The notes beneath the pieces are model-generated. The model made no database searches. It saw only the letters and a program-made list of their open reading frames with translations, and was not told where the DNA came from. Position numbers and translations under genes: made by a program. Shown here piece by piece: positions 2,091 through 52,469 of a DNA stretch of 64,000 bases. How positions within the stretch are numbered: the first letter of the stretch is position 1; every line of letters starts with the position of its first letter. The stretch is taken from assembly GCA_000004985.1 (NCBI GenBank), contig GG738866.1. One strand, 5' to 3'. This DNA is from Naegleria gruberi. Taxonomy: Eukaryota.

Positions 2091-2801
2091 ATTTCTAAAA
2101 TAAATATATTTAAAAATGATAACAAAATTATAATAATAATAAATAAATATTTCAAAATAAGATAATTTTTCTCTCTTCAAAAATTTAATATTGTGTGTTG
2201 TGTTGTGATGATGGAAGGTTTTGTTTTCAACTCGCTTCTATAACTTGGAGAAAGAGAATTGATGATGAGCAAGTGTGTGAAACGTTTTTTTCTTCTTCGA
2301 TCCTCGCCGATTGTTTTGTGAAAACTCCGAGGAGAGAGTTTTGCAAAGGATGAACAAGTTTGGGAGTGAGACCAATTTGAAATACAAACAAGAAAGTGCA
2401 GAAGTTTTCAATTCCAATTCAATTGAAGTATTTTCTTTCTCAGAAACATGAAATATTGAGTTTTTCAATATTTTCATTTAAATTCATCACATACATGGTT
2501 GATTCCTATGATATAAAGTATTCCAAATGAAACTATTTGAAAAGAATAGACTAATGGGATCAGTAAATAGTTCAATAATCTTTTCTTTTTCGAATAGAAA
2601 CTGAACATTACCAGATATTACAAATTTTCGAGAAATTCCTTACATCACTTCTCACCAACAACAAATGTAACTGAACGATTTATTGAATTAACCAATAACG
2701 TTCTTTTGAAAATCATCATGAGACTAATAAGGATCGGAAATAGATGGAGGACATTCTTATTGTAAACTTCTAAAACAATGATGTATTAATAATACAAAAA
2801 A

Positions 2802-4745
2802 ATGCGTCGAAATAAAACCTCACAAGATAAGCAAGATGTAGTGGAGGAGGTGAATGAGGTTGAGAAGGTTGATTCTCAACAAAAAGAAGAGATAATGCAA
2901 GCACCACCACCTGAAAGTAAAGAACAAATTGAGAAGAACCTAGTTGTGGATCATGCTAGAAAGCCTAAAACAGTTGAGGATTTCTTTTTGGAACGTCCAT
3001 CATTATTAACATTTGAAGAGTCGGATTCTGAAGACGAATTGGATTTAAAGAAGAAGAAGAAAGTTAGCTTTGATGGATTTATGAATTTGACAATAATTTT
3101 TCTTGTTGCAGCAGTGATAAGAACAATGATTGATAATTTATCAGAGAGAGGTTTATTATTTCCGAATCTGGGTTTATTACATTGTATAAGTGATGAGTTA
3201 ATTCAAAGATCTTGTGTTGATGTATTAATATTTACATTGACTTATAATTCTGTAATTTATTTGAATAGTTCTTTGAGAATGTATTTATTGCCACTTATTG
3301 GAAAAGATGGATCAATTGTCGACAAGTTAATAACAATTATTGAGACATTGGTGTTTTATGGATCTACATTTTCATATATTGGAATATTTGTAGTGGCAAT
3401 TTTCATCAAGAGACTGTCATTGATGGTGAATATTGTAATCGTTTTCACAATGATGATCTATGGAATGAAAGCATACAGTTATTATGATTATATTAGAAGA
3501 AGAAAGTTTACTTTGAAGAAGGAAGGAAAGAGTGTAAATAGCGACGATGAAAGAAATATTGAAAAACCAACATCTCCAATTTCTCTCTTCAGGGAGTATT
3601 GCTACTTTTTATTTGCTCCAACATTGTGCTTTTTTAGGAGTTATCCAATGACCAATACCATTCGAATTTCTTTCATTCTAAAACAGGTTTTCAGTATTCT
3701 TATCTGTGGACTTGTAGGATGGTTTATATTTATTCAGTATTTGGAACCACTTTTTAGAAATAGTGCCAGTGTTGATCTTACTCCTCCAAGTATTGAGCAT
3801 CTGATCACATTGTTTGAGGAAAACAAAAACAGCTCAACACAGAACATTATTGATGCATTTAGAGGATCTAAATCTGATCAACACTTTCTTAATAATTTAG
3901 GAAAATTTGGATACTTGCTCCTCAAAACCAGTGTGCCTTGGTTTGTTTTGTGGTTGATTCTCAGTTTTGCATTCTTCCACTGCTATCTCAATATTCTTGC
4001 TGAATTATGTTGTTGGGGTGATAGATATTTTTTCAATGATTGGTGGAATGCTCCAGATTTTCAAACATTCTGGAAGAATTGGAATAGACCTGTACATCAA
4101 TGGCTCCTTCGTCACGTTTATCAACCTTCTCTCGGTTCTAATATTTCCAAGCCAATTTCTGTATTCTTTACCTTCTTGACATCAGCAATTCTTCATGAAA
4201 TCTGTATGGCCATGGTGTTCAGAAGCTTGAAACTATACTTTTTCTATGCAATGATTGTACAAGCTCCATTTGTGTTACTTGCTCAATATTTTGGTCAATA
4301 CAAGCCAAGAAAAGAGAAAAAGGATAAACAAAAGGAGTCAGGAATGAAGAAAGTTCCATCACTTTTGCAGCTTCCAGCAAAAGCTGAAGAAAAATTCAAA
4401 GAACTTGAAAGAAGAATATTGGAATTTAAATCTGATGTTGAAAAGAAATTGAAATCAAGAAAAAGCAAGAACTTTTTAAATAGACTTGGTAATACTTCAA
4501 TGTGGATATCACTATTCCTTGGTCAACCATTACTATGCTTTGCTTACTTCCAAGTTTTTTATAGCTCTGAAAGTATGATTTGTGATGTAAGAAATAACAA
4601 GTATGGATATGGATTGGTATTTGATAGATGGTCTGATTCCTTCTCCAACGGAACCATTTCAAATATTGGTAATAGACTCATTGATGGAGAATGGAAAATA
4701 ATATTGGATCAATTATTTTCCATTGTTACAGCAGCTTTGTTGTAA
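2802..4745 (+). CDS. DGAT1: Diacylglycerol O-acyltransferase 1 (MBOAT family, DGAT1/ACAT-type)
   Basis: Single 647-aa ORF. Contains YFLFAPTLCF, the motif identical to the DGAT1 signature, plus the MBOAT motif FGDRYFFNDWWNA..FWKNWNRPVHQWLLRHVY, and multiple TM helices. Confidence 0.85.
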   Translation: MRRNKTSQDKQDVVEEVNEVEKVDSQQKEEIMQAPPPESKEQIEKNLVVDHARKPKTVEDFFLERPSLLTFEESDSEDELDLKKKKKVSFDGFMNLTIIFLVAAVIRTMIDNLSERGLLFPNLGLLHCISDELIQRSCVDVLIFTLTYNSVIYLNSSLRMYLLPLIGKDGSIVDKLITIIETLVFYGSTFSYIGIFVVAIFIKRLSLMVNIVIVFTMMIYGMKAYSYYDYIRRRKFTLKKEGKSVNSDDERNIEKPTSPISLFREYCYFLFAPTLCFFRSYPMTNTIRISFILKQVFSILICGLVGWFIFIQYLEPLFRNSASVDLTPPSIEHLITLFEENKNSSTQNIIDAFRGSKSDQHFLNNLGKFGYLLLKTSVPWFVLWLILSFAFFHCYLNILAELCCWGDRYFFNDWWNAPDFQTFWKNWNRPVHQWLLRHVYQPSLGSNISKPISVFFTFLTSAILHEICMAMVFRSLKLYFFYAMIVQAPFVLLAQYFGQYKPRKEKKDKQKESGMKKVPSLLQLPAKAEEKFKELERRILEFKSDVEKKLKSRKSKNFLNRLGNTSMWISLFLGQPLLCFAYFQVFYSSESMICDVRNNKYGYGLVFDRWSDSFSNGTISNIGNRLIDGEWKIILDQLFSIVTAALL

Positions 4746-16132: not shown

Positions 16133-17953
16133 TTAATTGAAATAGTGCTTTGTGTGTTCTCTTGGATGGAAATATAGTGGATACTTGTTAGTGTTAATGT
16201 AGAACATTGATTGGTCAGTCTCCATTTCTGGGAATTCAGAATGTTTCTTTGTGAGAGTAAAGTTTCTAATGACATTGATCAAAAGGAAATGGAGCTCTGT
16301 ATTTGCAACACGACTTCCGGGACATTTTCTTAACAAATAGTTAATACTATTACAAAAGAAACAAATAACTTACCTTGCACCAACCTATATTATTCACATT
16401 TTCAACATTTTCAAAATGAATTCGAAAGGAGAAATGTTTAGAATCAGTAAAATTAAAAAGAAACAACTTACTCCGAAAGGAATTGAAGAAAACATTGATT
16501 TTGGAGCAAGAGGGGATTTCTTTTCATGTCTCTCAGGAATAAATTCCAAAGCTCTCGGAACGTATTCATCTTTCATGCTTGGATAATAATTCATGAAAAT
16601 TGCAATAGTTTCCTTTGGTAGAATATATCCACCAATTTCAATATCAGAATTCAATTGTCTTCCCATTGTAATGTAAGCAAATGAATTGAATCTTAAAACT
16701 TCTTCAACAAATTGTCTCACCAACTTGAGTTGTTTGTATTGCTCTGGGGTGATGATTAGTCCATTTTCAGATGAAACTTCATCCAAAGCCGGAGGACCAA
16801 AAACCTCAAGGCACTCGTTATAGAGCTTTTCTTGATATTCTGGATGATGAGCCAATCTGTACAAGATAAAATTCATGATACGACTTGTAATATCCACACC
16901 TCCCTGAATAAATGTAGAGAGAACTGTTGACACCTTTTCATTTGAGTTGGTGGCTCCCTCTGCCTTCTTTACAAGAATTTCGTAAAATCTTGGCTTGGCA
17001 TTTTCTGGTTGTGAAGCTCCAAATCTTTCAACACAATATCTGGCATTGTCAATCACTTGATCGTAATAACTCTCCAATGTCTTGTACTCCTCTGTCTTGA
17101 AATATTTGTAGAGTGGGAACTTGTAATCTAATCTTCCACACAAATCAAGAATTGTGATGGCTTTCTTTGAGAAATCGTCAAGTTTGAATGGTAAACTCTT
17201 TTCAAGCTCTTCAGTCATTTTGACACCAAAGAAAATTTTCATAATTGCATCGAATGCATATCTAGAAGTTGCTTCGAGACCATCATCAAGTCTGAATTGA
17301 TTTTCACCAACTTTTACAAAGTTCTTCTTCAATTGTCTGATCAAATCACTGTTCATTTCTGTCAGTTGAGGTACCACGATTTGATCGAGAAACTCTGGTT
17401 TCATGGCAAGGTTGAAGATTTGACGAATTTCATTCCAATTCTCTTCAATCTTCATTTCAATAGGTACCATTTCATAACCACGGCTTTCTTTGTAATATCT
17501 TGAAGGATTTAGAACTGTTCTACGTTCCTCAACTCTGGCAAGATCAGCAATCCAGTATGGGTTTGAAATGATAACCATATTTTTGTTTAAAGCAGTCAAC
17601 TTGACCATCTCTCCATACTCATTACACAAATCAAGAAAATAACTCATTGTATTCTTGGAGTGTTTCTTGATATCCAGATAGTTACCAAGAATTGGAAGAG
17701 GCTTAGGGCCTGGAATTTCTCCAAATGGTTTGGCAACAGATTTGGCCACATCTACTGTACCATCCTCTTTATGATAGGGACACTTGGCTTCAGTGTTGGC
17801 AGCAACAGATGAAATAGTTATGGATTCCTTTGTGGAATCTTGGTGATGGTACAATCTATTGTTGCTGTGGTGTGTTGTTAAAACAGAGAGAACCTGTTGT
17901 AGTAGAGGTTTGTGGATGAGGGCAGCATGTCTGATGGATTTGAGTGATGACAT
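16133..17953 (-). CDS. Cytochrome P450, mitochondrial-clan-like; exons 16472..17953, 16374..16384 (11-nt micro-exon), 16133..16328
   Basis: N-terminal presequence-like region then PGPKPLPILGN; EEVLRFNSF (ExxR); FIPERH (PERF); ..IPFG|GTAAGT. The heme loop FG-VGAR-KCPG is only restored by including GTTGGTGCAAG, flanked by AATATAG| and |GTAAGTT, then AAAATGTCCCGGAAGTCGT. Confidence 0.75.
16374..16384 (-). other. 11-nt micro-exon (GTTGGTGCAAG) encoding VGA(R) of the P450 heme-binding loop
   Basis: Perfect acceptor (atatag) and donor (gtaagt) flank it. The phases (0 in, 2 out) match both neighbouring exons. Confidence 0.6.
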
Positions 17954-47972: not shown

Positions 47973-48353
47973 TTAATCTTCTTAATTTAGATTCATTGTA
48001 AAGAATCATAAATTGTTGCCTTACTTTTCTCAGTATTTGTAAGTAGGTTGAATTGGTTCTTCACTCTTTGTTTTATTTATTACAATGAAAGCAACCTATA
48101 GAAAATCATATATTCTGTTGTAACTTCTATTTCATTAAATATCTCACTCAAACTCCTCTTTGTTTTTATCAAAGGTTGTCTAAATGAGCTCTTATTCTTG
48201 AAGAAAATACTCTTCCGCCCCTAACAAACAATACACAATCTAAACATTCACTATTATTAATTAATAAATAGCTAAATAATTATTCTCTGATGGTTTCTGT
48301 TGATGAGATGATGACAATAATAATTGAACCAAATTTTTATTGATTCAAAAAAA

Positions 48354-51206
48354 ATGAGCAACAATTCATCATCTAAAAATTTCCAACAAAACACAAAATT
48401 GTTGAATAAATCTCAGCACTTGATAAAGAGTTTTCACATTTCTCCTTTCATTTCGCTAGTATATAAGAATGATATTGGAGATAATATACAACGTGTAGCT
48501 TTTTCTAATGTATCACAACAATTCTATATTTGTTGTGCTGATAGTAAAATTAATATAGTTGAATATGCAACAGGAGAAAGATTATATACTATCGAAGCCG
48601 ATTCAAATGTTACTTGTCTTTCATTAAGTTCGGATGATAGATTCCTTGCTGTTAGTTGTAAGAGTGGACAAGTTACAATTTATAGTATGAAGCAACAAAA
48701 GGCTTTGAAAACTTTCCGAGTTGGTGTTTCTTCACCTGTTATTCAATTAGCCTACTCTCCTGATGATGCCTTTTTAGCTATGGCTCATGGTGATGGTAGT
48801 ATTGATATTTATTATACTCCTACAACTCAAGATGAATCAACAGGACAACCTGCTTTACTTAAATTATTATTTACAATTAAGAAACATCATCAAGGACAAA
48901 TACATTTAATGAAATGGATTGATAATTTATGGTTAGCATCAAGTGGTTTGGATGGAGCTAAAGTAATGCAAATAGGAAATGAAGAAGATGAAAGTCGTCC
49001 ATATAAAATTATTGCAAGTATTCATGATAATAGAAATGATATTAGAGATGTTACTTTATTGAAGGAACATGATACTGAAGATAATACTAAACCAATTTAT
49101 TTAATGACTGCTGGACATGGTTCTTTATATCAATTTAAATGGAATGAAAAGAATTCTACATTCAATTTATCTAACACAATTCCTATCAAACATTATTTCT
49201 CAAGTATGATTGAAATAACTTCTACTGAAAATGATTCATTTACTCTTATTGCCAGTACTCCTGTTAAGAAAAAGAATAATTTGGTGAGGATAACAGTTAA
49301 GAAACCACAAGTTTCTGATAAAAAGAAGAAGAAGGACGAAGATGATGACGATGATGCTGTTAAAATTGAATATATTCCTGAAAAATCACTTGTTGGTCTT
49401 TCGCAATTATTCAAATTATCTGATTCTGAAATTTTTGCTATTACCATTGATTCAAATTTTGCAATTTTCAAGAGAAAGGAGAATGAAGCAAATGGTGATG
49501 AATCTGCTAAAGCTAAACTCAAGAAGAAACTTTCAAAGAAGGAAGATGTTACAGAAGTTGCCTCTAAAGGAGTTTTGTTTGAAAAAGTTGGTCAAAGATT
49601 GGGATTCAACGATGATGTCTTGGATATGTCATTGTTCTCATCTAGAAATATGTTGGCCGTCGCTACAAATTCTGAGAATGTTACCTTGTTGAATTTGAGT
49701 GATGCCAATCAAGATCCAATTGAAGTTTCTGGACACTCTGAAATGATCTTGTCTCTTGATCGCTCAAAGGATAAGGATCAACGTTATTTGGTCACTGGTT
49801 CTAAGGATAAATCTATTAGAGTTTGGGATGTCTCTAAATACGGAAATACACAAGGAGAAGAACATGTCACCCCTGTTTCTGTTGGTACAAGCCACTTGAC
49901 CGGTGTTACTGCTGTCTGTGTTTCTAACCACAAACGAAAGCTCAAAGATTCTAAGGAAGAAGATTTCTTCATTTACTCTGCATCAGATGATGGTGTTCTT
50001 AAAAAGTGGAAATTATCTGATTGTAGCTTGTTAGGTACAAACTCTGAAAGCCACAAAAAGACTGTCAGTGAAATTTCAGTTTCACCTGATGATTCAATGA
50101 TTGCCACTGCTAGTGCTGATAAGACTGCTAAAGTTTTTGATACTTCTGATTTGTCTAAGGTTCTCTTTGAATTCCCTCACAAGAAAGCAGTGTGGTGTGT
50201 CAAGTTCTCACCTGTTGATAAAGTTATTGCTACTGGTTGCAGTGATAACATGATTAGAATTTGGTCTTTAAAGACTGGTAACTGTGTTAAAGTTTTGGAA
50301 GGTCATGATCAATCAATTCTCAAGATGCAATTCTTGAATAATGGTGCTCAATTGGTTTCTGCAGATGCCAATGGTGTTGTAAGATTGTGGGTTATTAAGA
50401 CTGGTGAATGCATTAAAGTTTTTGGTGATGCTCACACTGACAGAATTTGGGCTGTTTCTGTAGATCAAAAGACCAATCAATTGATTACTGGTGGTGAAGA
50501 TTCCAGAATTAATATTTGGCATGATAACACTGAAGAAATTAAGGAAGAACAAAGAGAAGATGTAAATTTGTCAGTTATTCAAGATCAAGAATTGAGGAAT
50601 TTGGAAAGACAAGGTAAAATGAAGGATGTCCTTAGAAAAGCCATTGAATTGGATAGACCAAAGCTCACCTATACAACCATTGAAAAACTTGTCAAGACTG
50701 ATGAGAAGACTGTCTTGGAAGGTTTGATTATGGAATTACCAAAGATTCACCTTATGCACCTATTCCAATACTGTATTGATTGGAACTCTAACTCAAAGTT
50801 TTGTCAAATTGCTCAACTTGTTTTAAAGATAATGTTTGACCTTGTAGAACCATCTTTCATTGATATTGCCTATGAAAAATCAGTAGATGCTTTGTCATTG
50901 TACAGTCAGAGACACTTAAAGAGAATAACTTATTTAGAACAAAAGAGTTTCATTTTAGAACATGCATTGAATCAAATGAATGCCTTAACGCCAATCGAAA
51001 ATTCATCCAATGTTGAAACTTTGAAGAGTATGCCATCAAAGAAGAGAAAGGAAATTGATACATCAAAGGTTGTTCAAGAACCAATTCAGTTCAAGACTGT
51101 TGAAGTTGTTGATGAAGATGTAGAATTTTCAGACCAAGAAGGAGAATTTGATGAAGATGGTGAAGAGGAAACATTCGAACCATCTACAAAAAAGCAAAAA
51201 AATTAA
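48354..51206 (+). CDS. UTP13: U3 snoRNP protein UTP13/TBL3 (WD40 repeats + Utp13 C-terminal domain)
   Basis: ~10 WD repeats (..LVTGSKDKSIRVWDV.., ..ATGCSDNMIRIWSL.., ..SADANGVVRLWVI..). The C-terminal Utp13 block reads VLRKAIELDRPKLTY..LPKIHLMHLFQYCIDWNSNSKFCQIAQLVLKIMF. Confidence 0.75.
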   Translation: MSNNSSSKNFQQNTKLLNKSQHLIKSFHISPFISLVYKNDIGDNIQRVAFSNVSQQFYICCADSKINIVEYATGERLYTIEADSNVTCLSLSSDDRFLAVSCKSGQVTIYSMKQQKALKTFRVGVSSPVIQLAYSPDDAFLAMAHGDGSIDIYYTPTTQDESTGQPALLKLLFTIKKHHQGQIHLMKWIDNLWLASSGLDGAKVMQIGNEEDESRPYKIIASIHDNRNDIRDVTLLKEHDTEDNTKPIYLMTAGHGSLYQFKWNEKNSTFNLSNTIPIKHYFSSMIEITSTENDSFTLIASTPVKKKNNLVRITVKKPQVSDKKKKKDEDDDDDAVKIEYIPEKSLVGLSQLFKLSDSEIFAITIDSNFAIFKRKENEANGDESAKAKLKKKLSKKEDVTEVASKGVLFEKVGQRLGFNDDVLDMSLFSSRNMLAVATNSENVTLLNLSDANQDPIEVSGHSEMILSLDRSKDKDQRYLVTGSKDKSIRVWDVSKYGNTQGEEHVTPVSVGTSHLTGVTAVCVSNHKRKLKDSKEEDFFIYSASDDGVLKKWKLSDCSLLGTNSESHKKTVSEISVSPDDSMIATASADKTAKVFDTSDLSKVLFEFPHKKAVWCVKFSPVDKVIATGCSDNMIRIWSLKTGNCVKVLEGHDQSILKMQFLNNGAQLVSADANGVVRLWVIKTGECIKVFGDAHTDRIWAVSVDQKTNQLITGGEDSRINIWHDNTEEIKEEQREDVNLSVIQDQELRNLERQGKMKDVLRKAIELDRPKLTYTTIEKLVKTDEKTVLEGLIMELPKIHLMHLFQYCIDWNSNSKFCQIAQLVLKIMFDLVEPSFIDIAYEKSVDALSLYSQRHLKRITYLEQKSFILEHALNQMNALTPIENSSNVETLKSMPSKKRKEIDTSKVVQEPIQFKTVEVVDEDVEFSDQEGEFDEDGEEETFEPSTKKQKN

Positions 51207-51220
51207 AATGTTAAAATTCT

Positions 51221-52153
51221 TTAATTAGTTGTGGTTGGTGTCTTTTCAGCTTCATCATCAATTGAGTTGAAGGTATTTGATGTTTCAGAATTATGAACCA
51301 AGAAAGTACGAGCATTACGGAAAGTACTACCATCCTTGATGGAAAGCTTATTGTGCTTATATTGAACAATAACACCTTCTCCAAAGTGCAAAATCCACTT
51401 GAAACGGTCACAAATGTGAATTCTATCAGCATGATTGTTTGAATTCTTGTTCCAGACTTGTAAAACGTCTTCCTTAGTTCTCAAACTCAAAACACAACCA
51501 ACAACATTACCAGTTTCTATTTAAGGAAGGGTGATGAATTAAAATGAATATGAGTAACAATACATACCAAATTGTTCACAAATAGTAGAGAAAACGAGTT
51601 GTTCCCACAATCTATCACAGAAAGTTGATGTTTGACCATTTTCACCCTTTCTAATTTTGACCATCCAACATCCACCTAATTATTATTAAATTATTATTAT
51701 TAAATTTTTAATAAACGTAATGCGGAAATGTATACAAACCTTGAGGGAAACTATTTAAAATTAATAATTAAATATAATTAAATACATACGATTCCCACAT
51801 TGGTACTACTTCATGTCTGAACAATGAAATATTACTATTCTTTGGCAATTTGCTTGGCTTTTGGAGGTAAGAATAAACTTTGCAGAATTCATCAATTGAT
51901 GAAACGGTGGCAAGTTTAGTCAAACAATCACGGTATTGACTTCCATCCTTTTCCTTTTCATGATGTTCTTGATGATGATGTCCTTCTTTATCTACTTTAG
52001 TATTAGCATACCAAAAAGTCCATTTAGTTTCAAGTGGAAATCCTTTAGCTTTTAATTGTTCATCGCTATCATATGATTGAGACTTGGTCTTTTTAGCTGG
52101 TTGAGGAACTTCAAAAACAGTCTCGGAAACAACTTCTTGTTGAGATGTAGACA
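51221..52153 (-). CDS. EIF4E: Translation initiation factor eIF4E; exons 51790..52153, 51740..51750 (11-nt micro-exon), 51568..51675, 51221..51516
   Basis: ..KWTFWYANTK..., SLFRHEVVPMWE, then S-FPQ-G (micro-exon), GCWMVKIRKGENGQTSTFCDRLWEQLVFSTICEQF, ETGNVVGCVLSLRTKEDVLQVWNKN.. All are eIF4E cap-binding motifs. Confidence 0.75.
51740..51750 (-). other. 11-nt micro-exon (TTTCCCTCAAG) in eIF4E, between PMWE and GGCW
   Basis: Flanked by TTTTAAATAG| and |GTTTGTAT. It is the only canonical way to convert phase 2 (..GAATC|GTATGT) to phase 1 (ATTAG|GTGGATGTTGG). Confidence 0.55.
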
Positions 52154-52469
52154 TTTTTTTATTAATTTTTGTTCTTCTTTTCACCTTTTCACCACAGAAG
52201 CCTTCTTCCTAGCATAACAGGATATCAAAAGAGATTTGCACAAGCCATGTATTGTCTCATGGAGGCGAGAGTTGTTATTTGTTCTTTGACACTACTCCGA
52301 TATTTATCTCTAACAATTGATGATTGAGTGGAAGAGAATTTATTAAGAATGTTCACCTACTAACAACATTCCACGTGACTTCCTTCAAATGAATTCAAAG
52401 GAATTGCAGATTTAAGATAATTTATAGAGCTAATTGCAGCAAAAGAATCAACCTTTCTTATTAATTTTA

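What the first reader, a model, noticed from the sequence alone, without database searches (positions are those of the whole stretch)
51740..51750. 11-nt micro-exon in eIF4E between the PMWE and GG(R/C)W cap-binding motifs
Exon 1 ends GAATC|GTATGT (phase 2). The next conserved exon can only start at ATTAG|GTGGATGTTGG (phase 1). No single canonical GT-AG intron reconciles the phases. Including TTTCCCTCAAG (acceptor TTTTAAATAG, donor GTTTGTAT) yields ..PMWE-SFPQ-GGCWMVKI.., whose spacing matches eIF4E (PMWE-DEKNKR-GGRW). This is the second micro-exon of identical length in the window.
Basis: partly seen in the sequence, partly recalled or inferred. Interest (0 to 1): 0.55.

Follow-up and report, generated by a model that had tools for sequence, protein, structure and literature searches.

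The report
Real, already-annotated 11-nt micro-exon
The 11-base exon is real: it supplies four amino acids of the cap-binding loop of a Naegleria gruberi eIF4E-family protein and is conserved across Naegleria, but the public reference annotation already contains it, so it is a tidy confirmation rather than a discovery.

Summary
The window is Naegleria gruberi DNA. On the minus strand, 52154-51221 encodes a four-exon eIF4E-family gene. Its second exon is the 11-nt TTTCCCTCAAG (51750-51740), flanked by GT-AG introns of 39 and 64 nt. Splicing it in gives a 259-aa protein that is 100% identical over its full length to RefSeq XP_002677647.1, so the micro-exon is already annotated.

Comparative evidence is decisive. 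Five Naegleria-clade genomes keep an 11-nt exon at the same place. They differ only at synonymous third positions, while the flanking introns vary from 39 to 165 nt and from 52 to 81 nt. Willaertia, Acrasis, an uncultured heterolobosean and Perkinsus carry the same codons uninterrupted.

Every in-frame single-intron alternative found (GT-AG, GC-AG and AT-AC tried) deletes invariant residues. Skipping the micro-exon shifts the frame.

The WE-SFPQ-GG loop is two residues shorter than canonical eIF4E (W-x8-W, not W-x10-W), a trait of a protist eIF4E-2-like subfamily. The exon also lies between the W102 and W113 equivalents, not W56 and W102.

The second 11-nt micro-exon exists too, in a cytochrome P450 gene at 16384-16374. 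No RNA evidence for N. gruberi itself could be obtained here. Interest is low.

The parts
51790..52154 (-). Exon 1 of the eIF4E-family gene (ATG at 52154-52152; 365 nt). It ends GAATC in phase 2 and encodes residues 1-121 plus two bases of Ser122, including W45, W48, Y74 (W56 equivalent), W120 and E121 (W102 and E103 equivalents).
   Evidence: Pfam IF4E match covers residues 40-214, E=3.6e-41. Alignment to 4EHP.
51751..51789 (-). Intron A, 39 nt, GTATGT...AAATAG. The terminal AG is its only AG. It is present in all five Naegleria-clade genomes (39-165 nt) and absent in Willaertia, Acrasis, an uncultured heterolobosean and Perkinsus.
51740..51750 (-). The 11-nt micro-exon TTTCCCTCAAG. It supplies the third base of Ser122, then Phe123, Pro124 and Gln125, and the first base of Gly126.
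   Evidence: Variants in relatives are ATTCCCTCAAG, ATTTCCTCAAG and CTTCCCTCAAG, and all translate to SFPQG.
51676..51739 (-). Intron B, 64 nt, GTTTGT...AATTAG. The terminal AG is its only AG. It is Naegleria-specific, like intron A (52-81 nt in relatives).
51568..51675 (-). Exon 3, 108 nt. It starts in phase 1 with GT GGA TGT TGG and encodes G(126)GCWMVKIRKGENGQTSTFCDRLWEQLVFSTICEQF.
   Evidence: Exon 3 is 84-93% identical at the DNA level to the Naegleria relatives.
51517..51567 (-). Intron 3, 51 nt, GTATGT...AAATAG. The position is shared with N. fowleri, N. lovaniensis, both metagenome relatives and Willaertia, so it is older than introns A and B.
51221..51516 (-). Exon 4, including the TAA stop at 51223-51221. 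It encodes the C-terminal half of the IF4E domain, including W183 (W166 equivalent).

Best explanation
The 11 nt at 51750-51740 (minus strand) are a genuine internal coding exon, very probably constitutive, of the Naegleria gruberi eIF4E-family gene XP_002677647.1. Shown: the exon lies between two short canonical GT-AG introns. It restores the reading frame between exon 1 (phase 2) and exon 3 (phase 1). It encodes S-F-P-Q and the first base of a Gly codon, the residues directly after the cap-stacking Trp120 and Glu121 (W102/E103 equivalents). In the model these residues lie in the loop that leads into the next beta-strand (GGCWMVKI). The exon is ancestral coding sequence that became isolated when two introns came to lie 11 nt apart in the Naegleria lineage. 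Inferred: Naegleria introns are short, so each intron is probably recognised as its own unit (intron definition). An 11-nt exon is too short to hold an acceptor-side and a donor-side splicing complex at once, so the two introns are most likely removed one after the other, not simultaneously. Inclusion is obligatory for function, because skipping gives a frameshift and a stop after 8 codons, and retaining intron A gives a stop after 7 codons. Also inferred, from parsimony: both introns were gained in the Naegleria stem lineage, not lost repeatedly elsewhere.
For: 1. The spliced product is identical over all 259 aa to EFC44903.1/XP_002677647.1/D2VEL1.
2. It is a full-length IF4E domain: 141 bits against a cut-off of 28.7. 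PDB hits to 4EHP reach E about 1e-24. The AF2 model has pLDDT 81.6, with 94-96 around the loop. Foldseek target-normalised TM-scores are 0.80-0.89 to 4EHP/eIF4E.
3. N. fowleri, N. lovaniensis and two metagenomic Naegleria-like contigs all have GAATC|GT...AG|NTTYCCTCAAG|GT...AG|GTGGATGTTGG. The exon is always 11 nt and all four sequence variants are synonymous. Intron A is 39-165 nt and intron B 52-81 nt, and global identity to N. gruberi is 23-55% for intron A and 56-59% for intron B, against 84-93% for exon 3.
4. Willaertia has GAATCATTCCCTCAAGGTGG uninterrupted. Acrasis, an uncultured heterolobosean and Perkinsus also have the codons contiguous.
5. WES[FY]P[QK]GGCW is found in all seven heterolobosean homologues, including a transcriptome-derived one. 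WExxPxGGCW extends to dinoflagellate eIF4E-2, Perkinsus and other protists.
6. All nine in-frame single-intron alternatives delete invariant residues. Skipping gives PMWESWMLDGQN*.
7. Orthology is supported by conserved synteny: a YccF-domain gene upstream in L004 and a WD40 gene downstream in L004 and L005, matching the Na/Ca-exchanger+YccF and Utp13-like WD40 neighbours in the window.
8. The steric and sequential-splicing argument for exons this short is stated for plants in PMC8831610.
Against: No transcript of N. gruberi itself was examined. The RefSeq models are computational predictions, so agreement with them is not RNA evidence. A scan of metagenome and metatranscriptome contigs for the spliced or the skipped junction found nothing. 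The order of intron removal and the use of intron definition are inferred, not shown. The resulting loop is two residues shorter than the eIF4E family consensus (W-x8-W against W-x10-W). On its own that could have hinted at a faulty model, but intronless orthologues show the short loop is genuine. Gain versus loss of the two introns rests on few taxa. A dinoflagellate (Effrenium) has an intron 2 nt away from the intron A site.
Confidence: 0.93

Rival explanations
1. The real mRNA uses one longer GT-AG intron from the same GTATGT donor (51789) to the downstream acceptor AATTAG|AAAG (exon resumes at 51650). This gives an in-frame protein, ...PMWES-KGENGQ..., that lacks FPQGGCWMVKIR. The 11-mer would then be plain intron sequence.
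For: This junction is canonical and keeps the frame open. It cannot be excluded as a minor isoform without RNA data.
Against: It removes G126, G127 and W129, which are invariant in 19 homologues, and C128, which is nearly invariant (>=90%), together with a core beta-strand (127-134 in the model). The 11-mer is conserved with only synonymous changes in five genomes while the surrounding intron sequence is not. Intronless orthologues encode exactly these residues.
Confidence: 0.03
2. The phase conflict is an artefact: a 1-nt sequencing or assembly error, or a decaying pseudogene. The fit of the 11-mer would then be fortuitous.
For: In principle, a single-base indel would let exon 1 join exon 3 directly. 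An AG-N11-GT arrangement is not rare in AT-rich DNA: eight candidates passed a loose scan of the window.
Against: Five independently sequenced genomes show the same exon 1 end, the same 11-nt exon and the same exon 3 start. A direct join would give WE-x-GCW, which no homologue has. The ORF is otherwise intact and scores as a full IF4E domain.
Confidence: 0.01
3. A single non-canonical intron (for example CG-AG or TC-TA boundaries) joins exon 1 to exon 3 without any micro-exon.
For: None found.
Against: No GC-AG or AT-AC combination keeps both motifs. The non-canonical joins that restore the frame would give WE-GGCW or WE-CGCW, which lack the xPx residues that are invariant in the subfamily. 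All 15 introns of this gene in the five Naegleria-clade genomes start GTNNGT and end AG.
Confidence: 0.01

Closest known systems
RefSeq gene model XP_002677647.1 / EFC44903.1 / UniProt D2VEL1, 'eukaryotic initiation factor 4E member 2-like protein' of Naegleria gruberi
   Same: The protein is identical over all 259 residues, so it has the same four-exon structure including the 11-nt exon.
   Different: Nothing differs. This is the same locus. The annotation is a prediction, and no paper was found that discusses the micro-exon.
Human 4EHP / eIF4E2 (PDB 2jgb, 5nvk, 5nvn)
   Same: It is the best sequence and fold match (E about 1e-24; target-normalised TM-score 0.80-0.88). It has Tyr at the W56-equivalent position. 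The W102, E103 and W166 equivalents are conserved.
   Different: The Naegleria protein keeps Trp at the W43 equivalent. It has Cys in place of W73 in the FW motif that contacts eIF4G/4E-BP. It has Cys in place of the Lys/Arg before W113. Its W102-W113 loop is two residues shorter. It has insertions of about 13 residues (His-rich) and about 7 residues.
Protist eIF4E-2-like clade (Amphidinium carterae eIF4E-2, Perkinsus marinus, Symbiodiniaceae, hemimastigotes and others)
   Same: It shares the diagnostic short loop WExxPxGGCW, the STFRNA C-terminal motif and 35-40% identity.
   Different: In the two genomes examined, those genes have either no intron here (Perkinsus) or a single GC-AG intron after the WE codons (Effrenium). 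Neither has a micro-exon.
Conserved ultra-short (<=15 nt) coding micro-exons of plants, such as the 9-nt AP2 micro-exon encoding VYLG (PMC8831610)
   Same: These are constitutive coding exons inside a conserved protein domain. They are required for frame and function, conserved in size and phase across species, and prone to being missed by annotation. The proposed mechanism is sequential removal of the two flanking introns.
   Different: The lineage is different and the flanking introns are much shorter. Here the annotation pipelines for three Naegleria species did recover the exon. The introns appear genus-specific, not ancient.
Neuronal SRRM4-regulated micro-exons of animals (from general knowledge; not tested here)
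   Same: They are very short exons that encode surface loops of proteins.
   Different: Those are alternatively spliced, usually preserve the frame (multiples of 3), lie between long introns and depend on a tissue-specific activator. This one is 11 nt, so skipping is frame-breaking and inclusion must be constitutive.

Membership tests
eIF4E family (Pfam PF01652, IF4E) | Full-length match to the IF4E profile above the curated cut-off | tested here: met
   141 bits against a cut-off of 28.7, E=3.6e-41, profile positions 1-158 of 158.
eIF4E family (Pfam PF01652, IF4E) | Cupped-hand alpha/beta fold of the solved eIF4E and 4EHP structures | tested here: met
   AF2 model with mean pLDDT 81.6 and pTM 0.75. 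Foldseek E about 6e-17 and target-normalised TM-score 0.80-0.89 to 4EHP, Drosophila, human and nematode eIF4E.
eIF4E family (Pfam PF01652, IF4E) | Cap-contacting residues: W102, E103 and W166 equivalents, and an aromatic residue at W56 | tested here: met
   W120, E121 and W183 are invariant in 19 homologues, and Y74 aligns with 4EHP Tyr. Cap binding itself was not tested.
eIF4E family (Pfam PF01652, IF4E) | Prototypical core spacing W102-(x10)-W113 (Joshi et al. 2005) | tested here: not met
   The spacing is W120-x8-W129, seen as a two-residue gap in the HMMER alignment to 4EHP. The consensus is quoted from PMC1260017. The short loop is a subfamily trait and is also present in intronless orthologues.
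eIF4E family (Pfam PF01652, IF4E) | (S/T)VxxFW motif with W73, which contacts eIF4G and 4E-BPs | tested here: not met
   The sequence is SSIDEFC. The W73 equivalent is Cys91 in the three Naegleria species, and S, T, V or Y in other heteroloboseans. The role of the motif is from PMC1260017.
Class II eIF4E (4EHP/eIF4E2/nCBP) as defined by Joshi et al. 2005 | W43 replaced by Y/F/L and W56 replaced by Y/F | tested here: not met
   The W56 equivalent is Tyr74, but the W43 equivalent remains Trp45 (KWTFWY). This is the 'fungal Class II / Class III-like' signature described in PMC1260017. PMC5862402 reports that the excavate eIF4E homologues it analysed fall outside metazoan Classes I-III.
Coding micro-exon (internal exon <=15 nt) | An internal exon of <=15 nt bounded by a canonical acceptor and donor, with introns on both sides | tested here: met
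   AG|TTTCCCTCAAG|GTTTGT, with introns of 39 and 64 nt.
Coding micro-exon (internal exon <=15 nt) | Inclusion is needed to keep the frame and encodes residues conserved in homologues | tested here: met
   Skipping gives a frameshift and a stop. SFPQ matches the S[FY]P[QK] found in all heterolobosean homologues.
Coding micro-exon (internal exon <=15 nt) | Same size and phase in orthologous genes of related species | tested here: met
   11 nt, entered in phase 2, in five Naegleria-clade genomes.
Coding micro-exon (internal exon <=15 nt) | Junction-spanning transcript reads from the organism itself | not testable with these tools
   There is no RNA-seq access. The spliced-junction pattern found 0 hits in metagenome contigs. 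Public data exist (PRJEB23822; PMC6142364).

The most novel reading that the evidence does not exclude
The two introns that isolate this exon are recent, Naegleria-specific gains only 11 nt apart. Together with a second micro-exon of exactly 11 nt in a P450 gene 35 kb away, they might reflect a common process. One possibility is an insertion mechanism that seeds closely spaced intron pairs. Another is a dedicated intronic signal that lets Naegleria splice ultra-short exons. Two observations hint at this. The heptamer TCGGAAT occurs five times in the micro-exon-flanking introns of four relatives and never in intron 3 (0.05 expected). An 11-mer, TTCGAATTCAT, is shared between N. fowleri intron A and the intron upstream of the N. 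gruberi P450 micro-exon.
Probability: 0.08. Interest if true: 0.5.

Novelty: already known. Interest (0 to 1): 0.15.

Why it matters
There are three modest points. First, this is a clean, comparatively validated example of a constitutive, frame-critical 11-nt exon in a free-living excavate, which makes it a useful positive control for micro-exon-aware annotation of protist genomes. Second, intron presence in Naegleria against absence in Willaertia, Acrasis and Perkinsus suggests that the flanking introns arose after the Naegleria-Willaertia split. That makes the locus a small natural experiment on how two introns come to lie 11 nt apart. Third, the encoded protein belongs to a widespread protist eIF4E subfamily with a shortened cap-binding loop, and in Naegleria the Trp that binds eIF4G/4E-BP is also missing. 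Its function is unknown. None of this changes current understanding, and the gene model has been public since the 2010 genome annotation.

Tried and rejected
- I enumerated all GT-AG, GC-AG and AT-AC single introns between exon 1 and exon 3. Nine keep the frame open, but all delete invariant residues, so none is the main product.
- I scanned metagenome contigs for the spliced (11-nt gap) or skipped (0-nt gap) junction, ATGTGGGAATC-N{0,11}-GTGGATGTTGGATGG. There were 0 hits, so no RNA-level evidence came from this.
- A look-up of the N. gruberi protein in the gene-position index found it is not on record. The annotated exon coordinates could therefore not be read directly and were inferred from protein identity.
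- I tested for an RNA structure across intron A, the micro-exon and intron B. The MFE was -18.7 kcal/mol with z = -0.25. Per-species folds pair the GGGAAU at the end of exon 1 with different partners: the start of the micro-exon in N. fowleri and N. lovaniensis, intron B in N. gruberi and in L010, and no confident partner in L004. No conserved helix can be claimed.
- TTCGRAAT is not enriched in the window (4 found, 5.4 expected).
- Literature searches for Naegleria plus microexon and Naegleria plus eIF4E found no description of this exon.
- The contig of one P450 relative (L008) ends before the informative region.
- The P450 C-terminal query did not retrieve an annotated N. gruberi protein. 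This may mean the gene is missing or mis-modelled in the annotation, or it may reflect a limitation of the word-indexed search. It is unresolved.

Full report
WHAT IS THERE

The window is AT-rich (31-38% GC in 2-kb steps) and comes from Naegleria gruberi. The finding concerns a gene on the minus strand. Exact coordinates were fixed by pattern search and translation:
- exon 1: 52154-51790 (365 nt), ending ...CCA ATG TGG GAA TC
- intron A: 51789-51751 (39 nt, GTATGT...AAATAG)
- micro-exon: 51750-51740 (TTTCCCTCAAG)
- intron B: 51739-51676 (64 nt, GTTTGT...AATTAG)
- exon 3: 51675-51568 (108 nt)
- intron 3: 51567-51517 (51 nt)
- exon 4: 51516-51221, including the TAA stop

Joined, these give a 780-nt ORF and a 259-aa protein.

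IS THE MICRO-EXON FORCED BY THE SEQUENCE?

Introns A and B each contain only one AG, the terminal one. Among the GT dinucleotides downstream of the acceptor, only the 11-nt exon restores the phase that exon 3 needs. A 15-nt exon gives phase 2 and a 34-nt exon gives phase 0.

I enumerated every GT-AG, GC-AG and AT-AC single intron that would keep exon 1 and exon 3 in frame. Nine exist. The most conservative runs from the same donor to an acceptor 25 nt inside exon 3 and gives PMWES-KGENGQ. All nine delete PMWE and/or GGCWMVKIR. Skipping the micro-exon yields PMWESWMLDGQN-stop. Reading through intron A yields MWESYVFNYI-stop.

IDENTITY

The spliced protein is a full-length IF4E domain (Pfam PF01652, 141 bits against a cut-off of 28.7). 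It is 100% identical over 100% of its length to 'eukaryotic initiation factor 4E member 2-like protein [Naegleria gruberi]', with accessions EFC44903.1, XP_002677647.1 and D2VEL1. The public annotation therefore already contains this micro-exon. Independent annotations of N. fowleri (XP_044569347.1) and N. lovaniensis (XP_044550859.1) also encode WESFPQGGCW.

COMPARATIVE TEST

This is the decisive evidence. I fetched the orthologous DNA.

Genomes that have the micro-exon:
- N. fowleri (L001)
- N. lovaniensis (L013)
- a Naegleria-like ENA metagenome contig (L004)
- a Naegleria-like JGI metagenome contig (L010)

All four show the same architecture as the window: ...GGGAATC|GT...AG|11 nt|GT...AG|GTGGATGTTGG.

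The four sequence variants of the exon are:
- TTTCCCTCAAG (N. gruberi and L004)
- ATTCCCTCAAG (N. fowleri)
- ATTTCCTCAAG (N. lovaniensis)
- CTTCCCTCAAG (L010)

The only variable positions are 1 and 4, which are the third bases of the Ser and Phe codons in the proposed frame. All variants translate to SFPQG. By contrast, intron A is 39, 165, 162, 96 and 62 nt, and intron B is 64, 61, 52, 81 and 71 nt. Global identity to N. gruberi is 23-55% for intron A and 56-59% for intron B, against 84-93% for exon 3.

Genomes with the codons uninterrupted:
- Willaertia magna (L002) reads CCAATGTGGGAATCATTCCCTCAAGGTGGTTGTTGG. The 11 bases are identical to the N. fowleri micro-exon.
- Acrasis kona (L003), an uncultured heterolobosean (L005) and Perkinsus marinus (L011) also have the codons contiguous.
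- The dinoflagellate Effrenium voratum (L012) has a single GC-AG intron directly after TGG GAG. That is 2 nt upstream of the intron A site, and there is no second intron.

Orthology is backed by synteny. The window has a Na/Ca-exchanger+YccF gene upstream and a convergent Utp13-like WD40 gene downstream. L004 likewise has a YccF-domain gene upstream and a WD40 gene downstream, and L005 has a WD40 gene downstream.

A sequencing error, a pseudogene or a chance AG-N11-GT cannot explain this pattern.

WHAT THE EXON ENCODES

In the AF2 model (mean pLDDT 81.6, with 94-96 in this region), residues 114-126 form the loop between strands 107-113 and 127-134. W120 and E121 align with the cap-stacking Trp and the guanine-binding Glu of 4EHP and eIF4E. 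The micro-exon residues S122-Q125 follow directly and lead into the GGCW strand. Foldseek places the model with 4EHP and eIF4E structures (target-normalised TM-score 0.80-0.89).

The linker has 4 residues, not 6. HMMER opens a two-residue gap against 4EHP. The family consensus W(x10)W of Joshi et al. 2005 (PMC1260017) becomes W(x8)W here.

The short loop is not a modelling artefact. It is found in all heterolobosean homologues, including intronless genes and a transcriptome-derived sequence. WExxPxGGCW is also shared by a broad protist clade that includes Amphidinium eIF4E-2 and Perkinsus.

The exon lies between the W102 and W113 equivalents, not W56 and W102.

By the Joshi criteria, the protein has Trp at the W43 position and Tyr at the W56 position. 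This is the 'fungal Class II / Class III-like' signature, not metazoan Class II. It also lacks the W73 that contacts eIF4G and 4E-BPs, having Cys91 instead.

HOW IT MOST LIKELY WORKS

Shown: there are two canonical short introns, all 15 introns of this gene in the five genomes begin GTNNGT and end AG, and inclusion is obligatory for frame.

Inferred: with introns of 39-165 nt, splice sites are probably paired across introns. An 11-nt exon cannot hold complexes on its acceptor and donor at the same time, so the introns are probably removed sequentially. This is the mechanism proposed for plant micro-exons of 15 nt or less (PMC8831610).

I found no supporting RNA structure. The region's folding energy is ordinary (z = -0.25), and the predicted partners of the exon 1 end differ between species.

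ORIGIN

Intron 3 is shared with Willaertia. Introns A and B are found only in the Naegleria clade among the taxa sampled. Two gains in the Naegleria stem lineage are somewhat more parsimonious than independent losses in Willaertia, the Acrasis lineage and the outgroups. However, reverse-transcriptase-mediated loss can remove adjacent introns together, and sampling is thin. This point is an inference of moderate strength.

THE SECOND MICRO-EXON

A scan for AG-N11-GTNNGT between open frames and inspection found GTTGGTGCAAG at 16384-16374 (minus strand), between introns of 87 and 45 nt in a cytochrome P450 gene. Inclusion gives PFG-VGAR-KCPGSRVA, which restores the haem-binding FxxGxRxCxG signature. 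Pfam p450 aligns straight across the junctions (1.3e-30). A metagenomic relative encodes STPFGVGARKCPGSR contiguously. Whether two exons of the same length is more than coincidence cannot be judged from two cases.

LITERATURE AND NOVELTY

Searches found no paper describing micro-exons in Naegleria or this eIF4E paralogue specifically. One survey reports that the excavate eIF4E homologues it analysed fall outside metazoan Classes I-III (PMC5862402). Because the exact gene model is in RefSeq, I rate the finding 'already known'. The added value here is the comparative validation, the loop-length correction and the Naegleria-specific distribution of the flanking introns.

LIMITS

No RNA data from N. 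gruberi could be examined, and a junction scan of metagenome contigs was empty. Public RNA-seq (PRJEB23822; PMC6142364) would settle inclusion, minor isoforms and splicing order.

Noticed in passing
window 16374-16384 (minus strand); flanking introns 16385-16471 and 16329-16373: A second 11-nt micro-exon, GTTGGTGCAAG, lies in a cytochrome P450 gene. Splicing gives PFG-VGAR-KCPGSRVA, which restores the haem-Cys signature FxxGxRxCxG. Pfam p450 aligns across the junctions (1.3e-30), and a metagenomic relative (P0010/L009) has the same residues contiguous. A homology search with this C-terminus returned no annotated N. gruberi protein, so the gene may be missing or mis-modelled in the annotation.
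   Followed up: partly
L001, L013 and L004 intron A; L010 intron B; compared with window 16385-16471: TCGGAAT occurs 5 times in the introns flanking the eIF4E micro-exon in four relatives. It never occurs in intron 3 or in N. gruberi (0.05 expected from shuffles). N. fowleri intron A also shares the 11-mer TTCGAATTCAT with the intron upstream of the N. gruberi P450 micro-exon. A looser related pattern, TTCGRAAT, which does not cover the 11-mer, is not enriched in the window overall. This could be an intronic splicing signal, a repeat remnant or coincidence.
   Followed up: partly
window 51790-51801 versus 51719-51729 (minus strand); L001 and L013 exon 1 end versus micro-exon start: The end of exon 1 (AAUGUGGGAAU) is complementary to an 11-nt stretch of intron B in N. 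gruberi (pair probability 0.67-0.87). In N. fowleri and N. lovaniensis, GGGAAUC instead pairs with GAUUCCC or GAUUUCC at the start of the micro-exon (p up to 0.99), closing intron A into a loop. The partner differs between species and the overall folding energy is unremarkable (z = -0.25).
   Followed up: partly
window 51882-51884 (Cys91) and 51671-51673 (Cys128), minus strand: The protein lacks two residues that are important in canonical eIF4E. The W73 equivalent in the FW motif that binds eIF4G/4E-BP is Cys in the three Naegleria species, and S, T, V or Y in other heteroloboseans. The R112 equivalent is Cys (GGCW) in >=90% of 19 homologues. This suggests a cap-binding protein that does not use the canonical eIF4G/4E-BP interface.
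   Followed up: partly
window 51945-51986 (minus strand), residues about 57-70: There is a His-rich insertion (GHHHQEHHEKEKDG) between the W46 and W56 equivalents. It is Gln-rich in N. fowleri and Willaertia and is modelled with pLDDT below 50. It stretches the family's W(x8-12)W spacing to x25.
   Followed up: no
window 51204-51223: The eIF4E-like gene converges on a 960-codon Utp13-like WD40 ORF (48324-51206, plus strand). The two stop codons are only 14 nt apart, so the 3' UTRs must overlap or be extremely short.
   Followed up: no
L012 about 2711-3310 (Effrenium voratum): The dinoflagellate homologue has a GC-AG intron directly after the TGG GAG (WE) codons. That is 2 nt upstream of the Naegleria intron A site. 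This is a near-coincident but non-identical intron position in a different supergroup.
   Followed up: no
L002 about 1676-2099 (Willaertia magna): Willaertia has a roughly 420-nt intron inside the FWY|ANTK codons that Naegleria lacks, while lacking introns A and B. Acrasis has only one intron, at yet another position. Intron turnover in this gene is therefore high within Heterolobosea.
   Followed up: no
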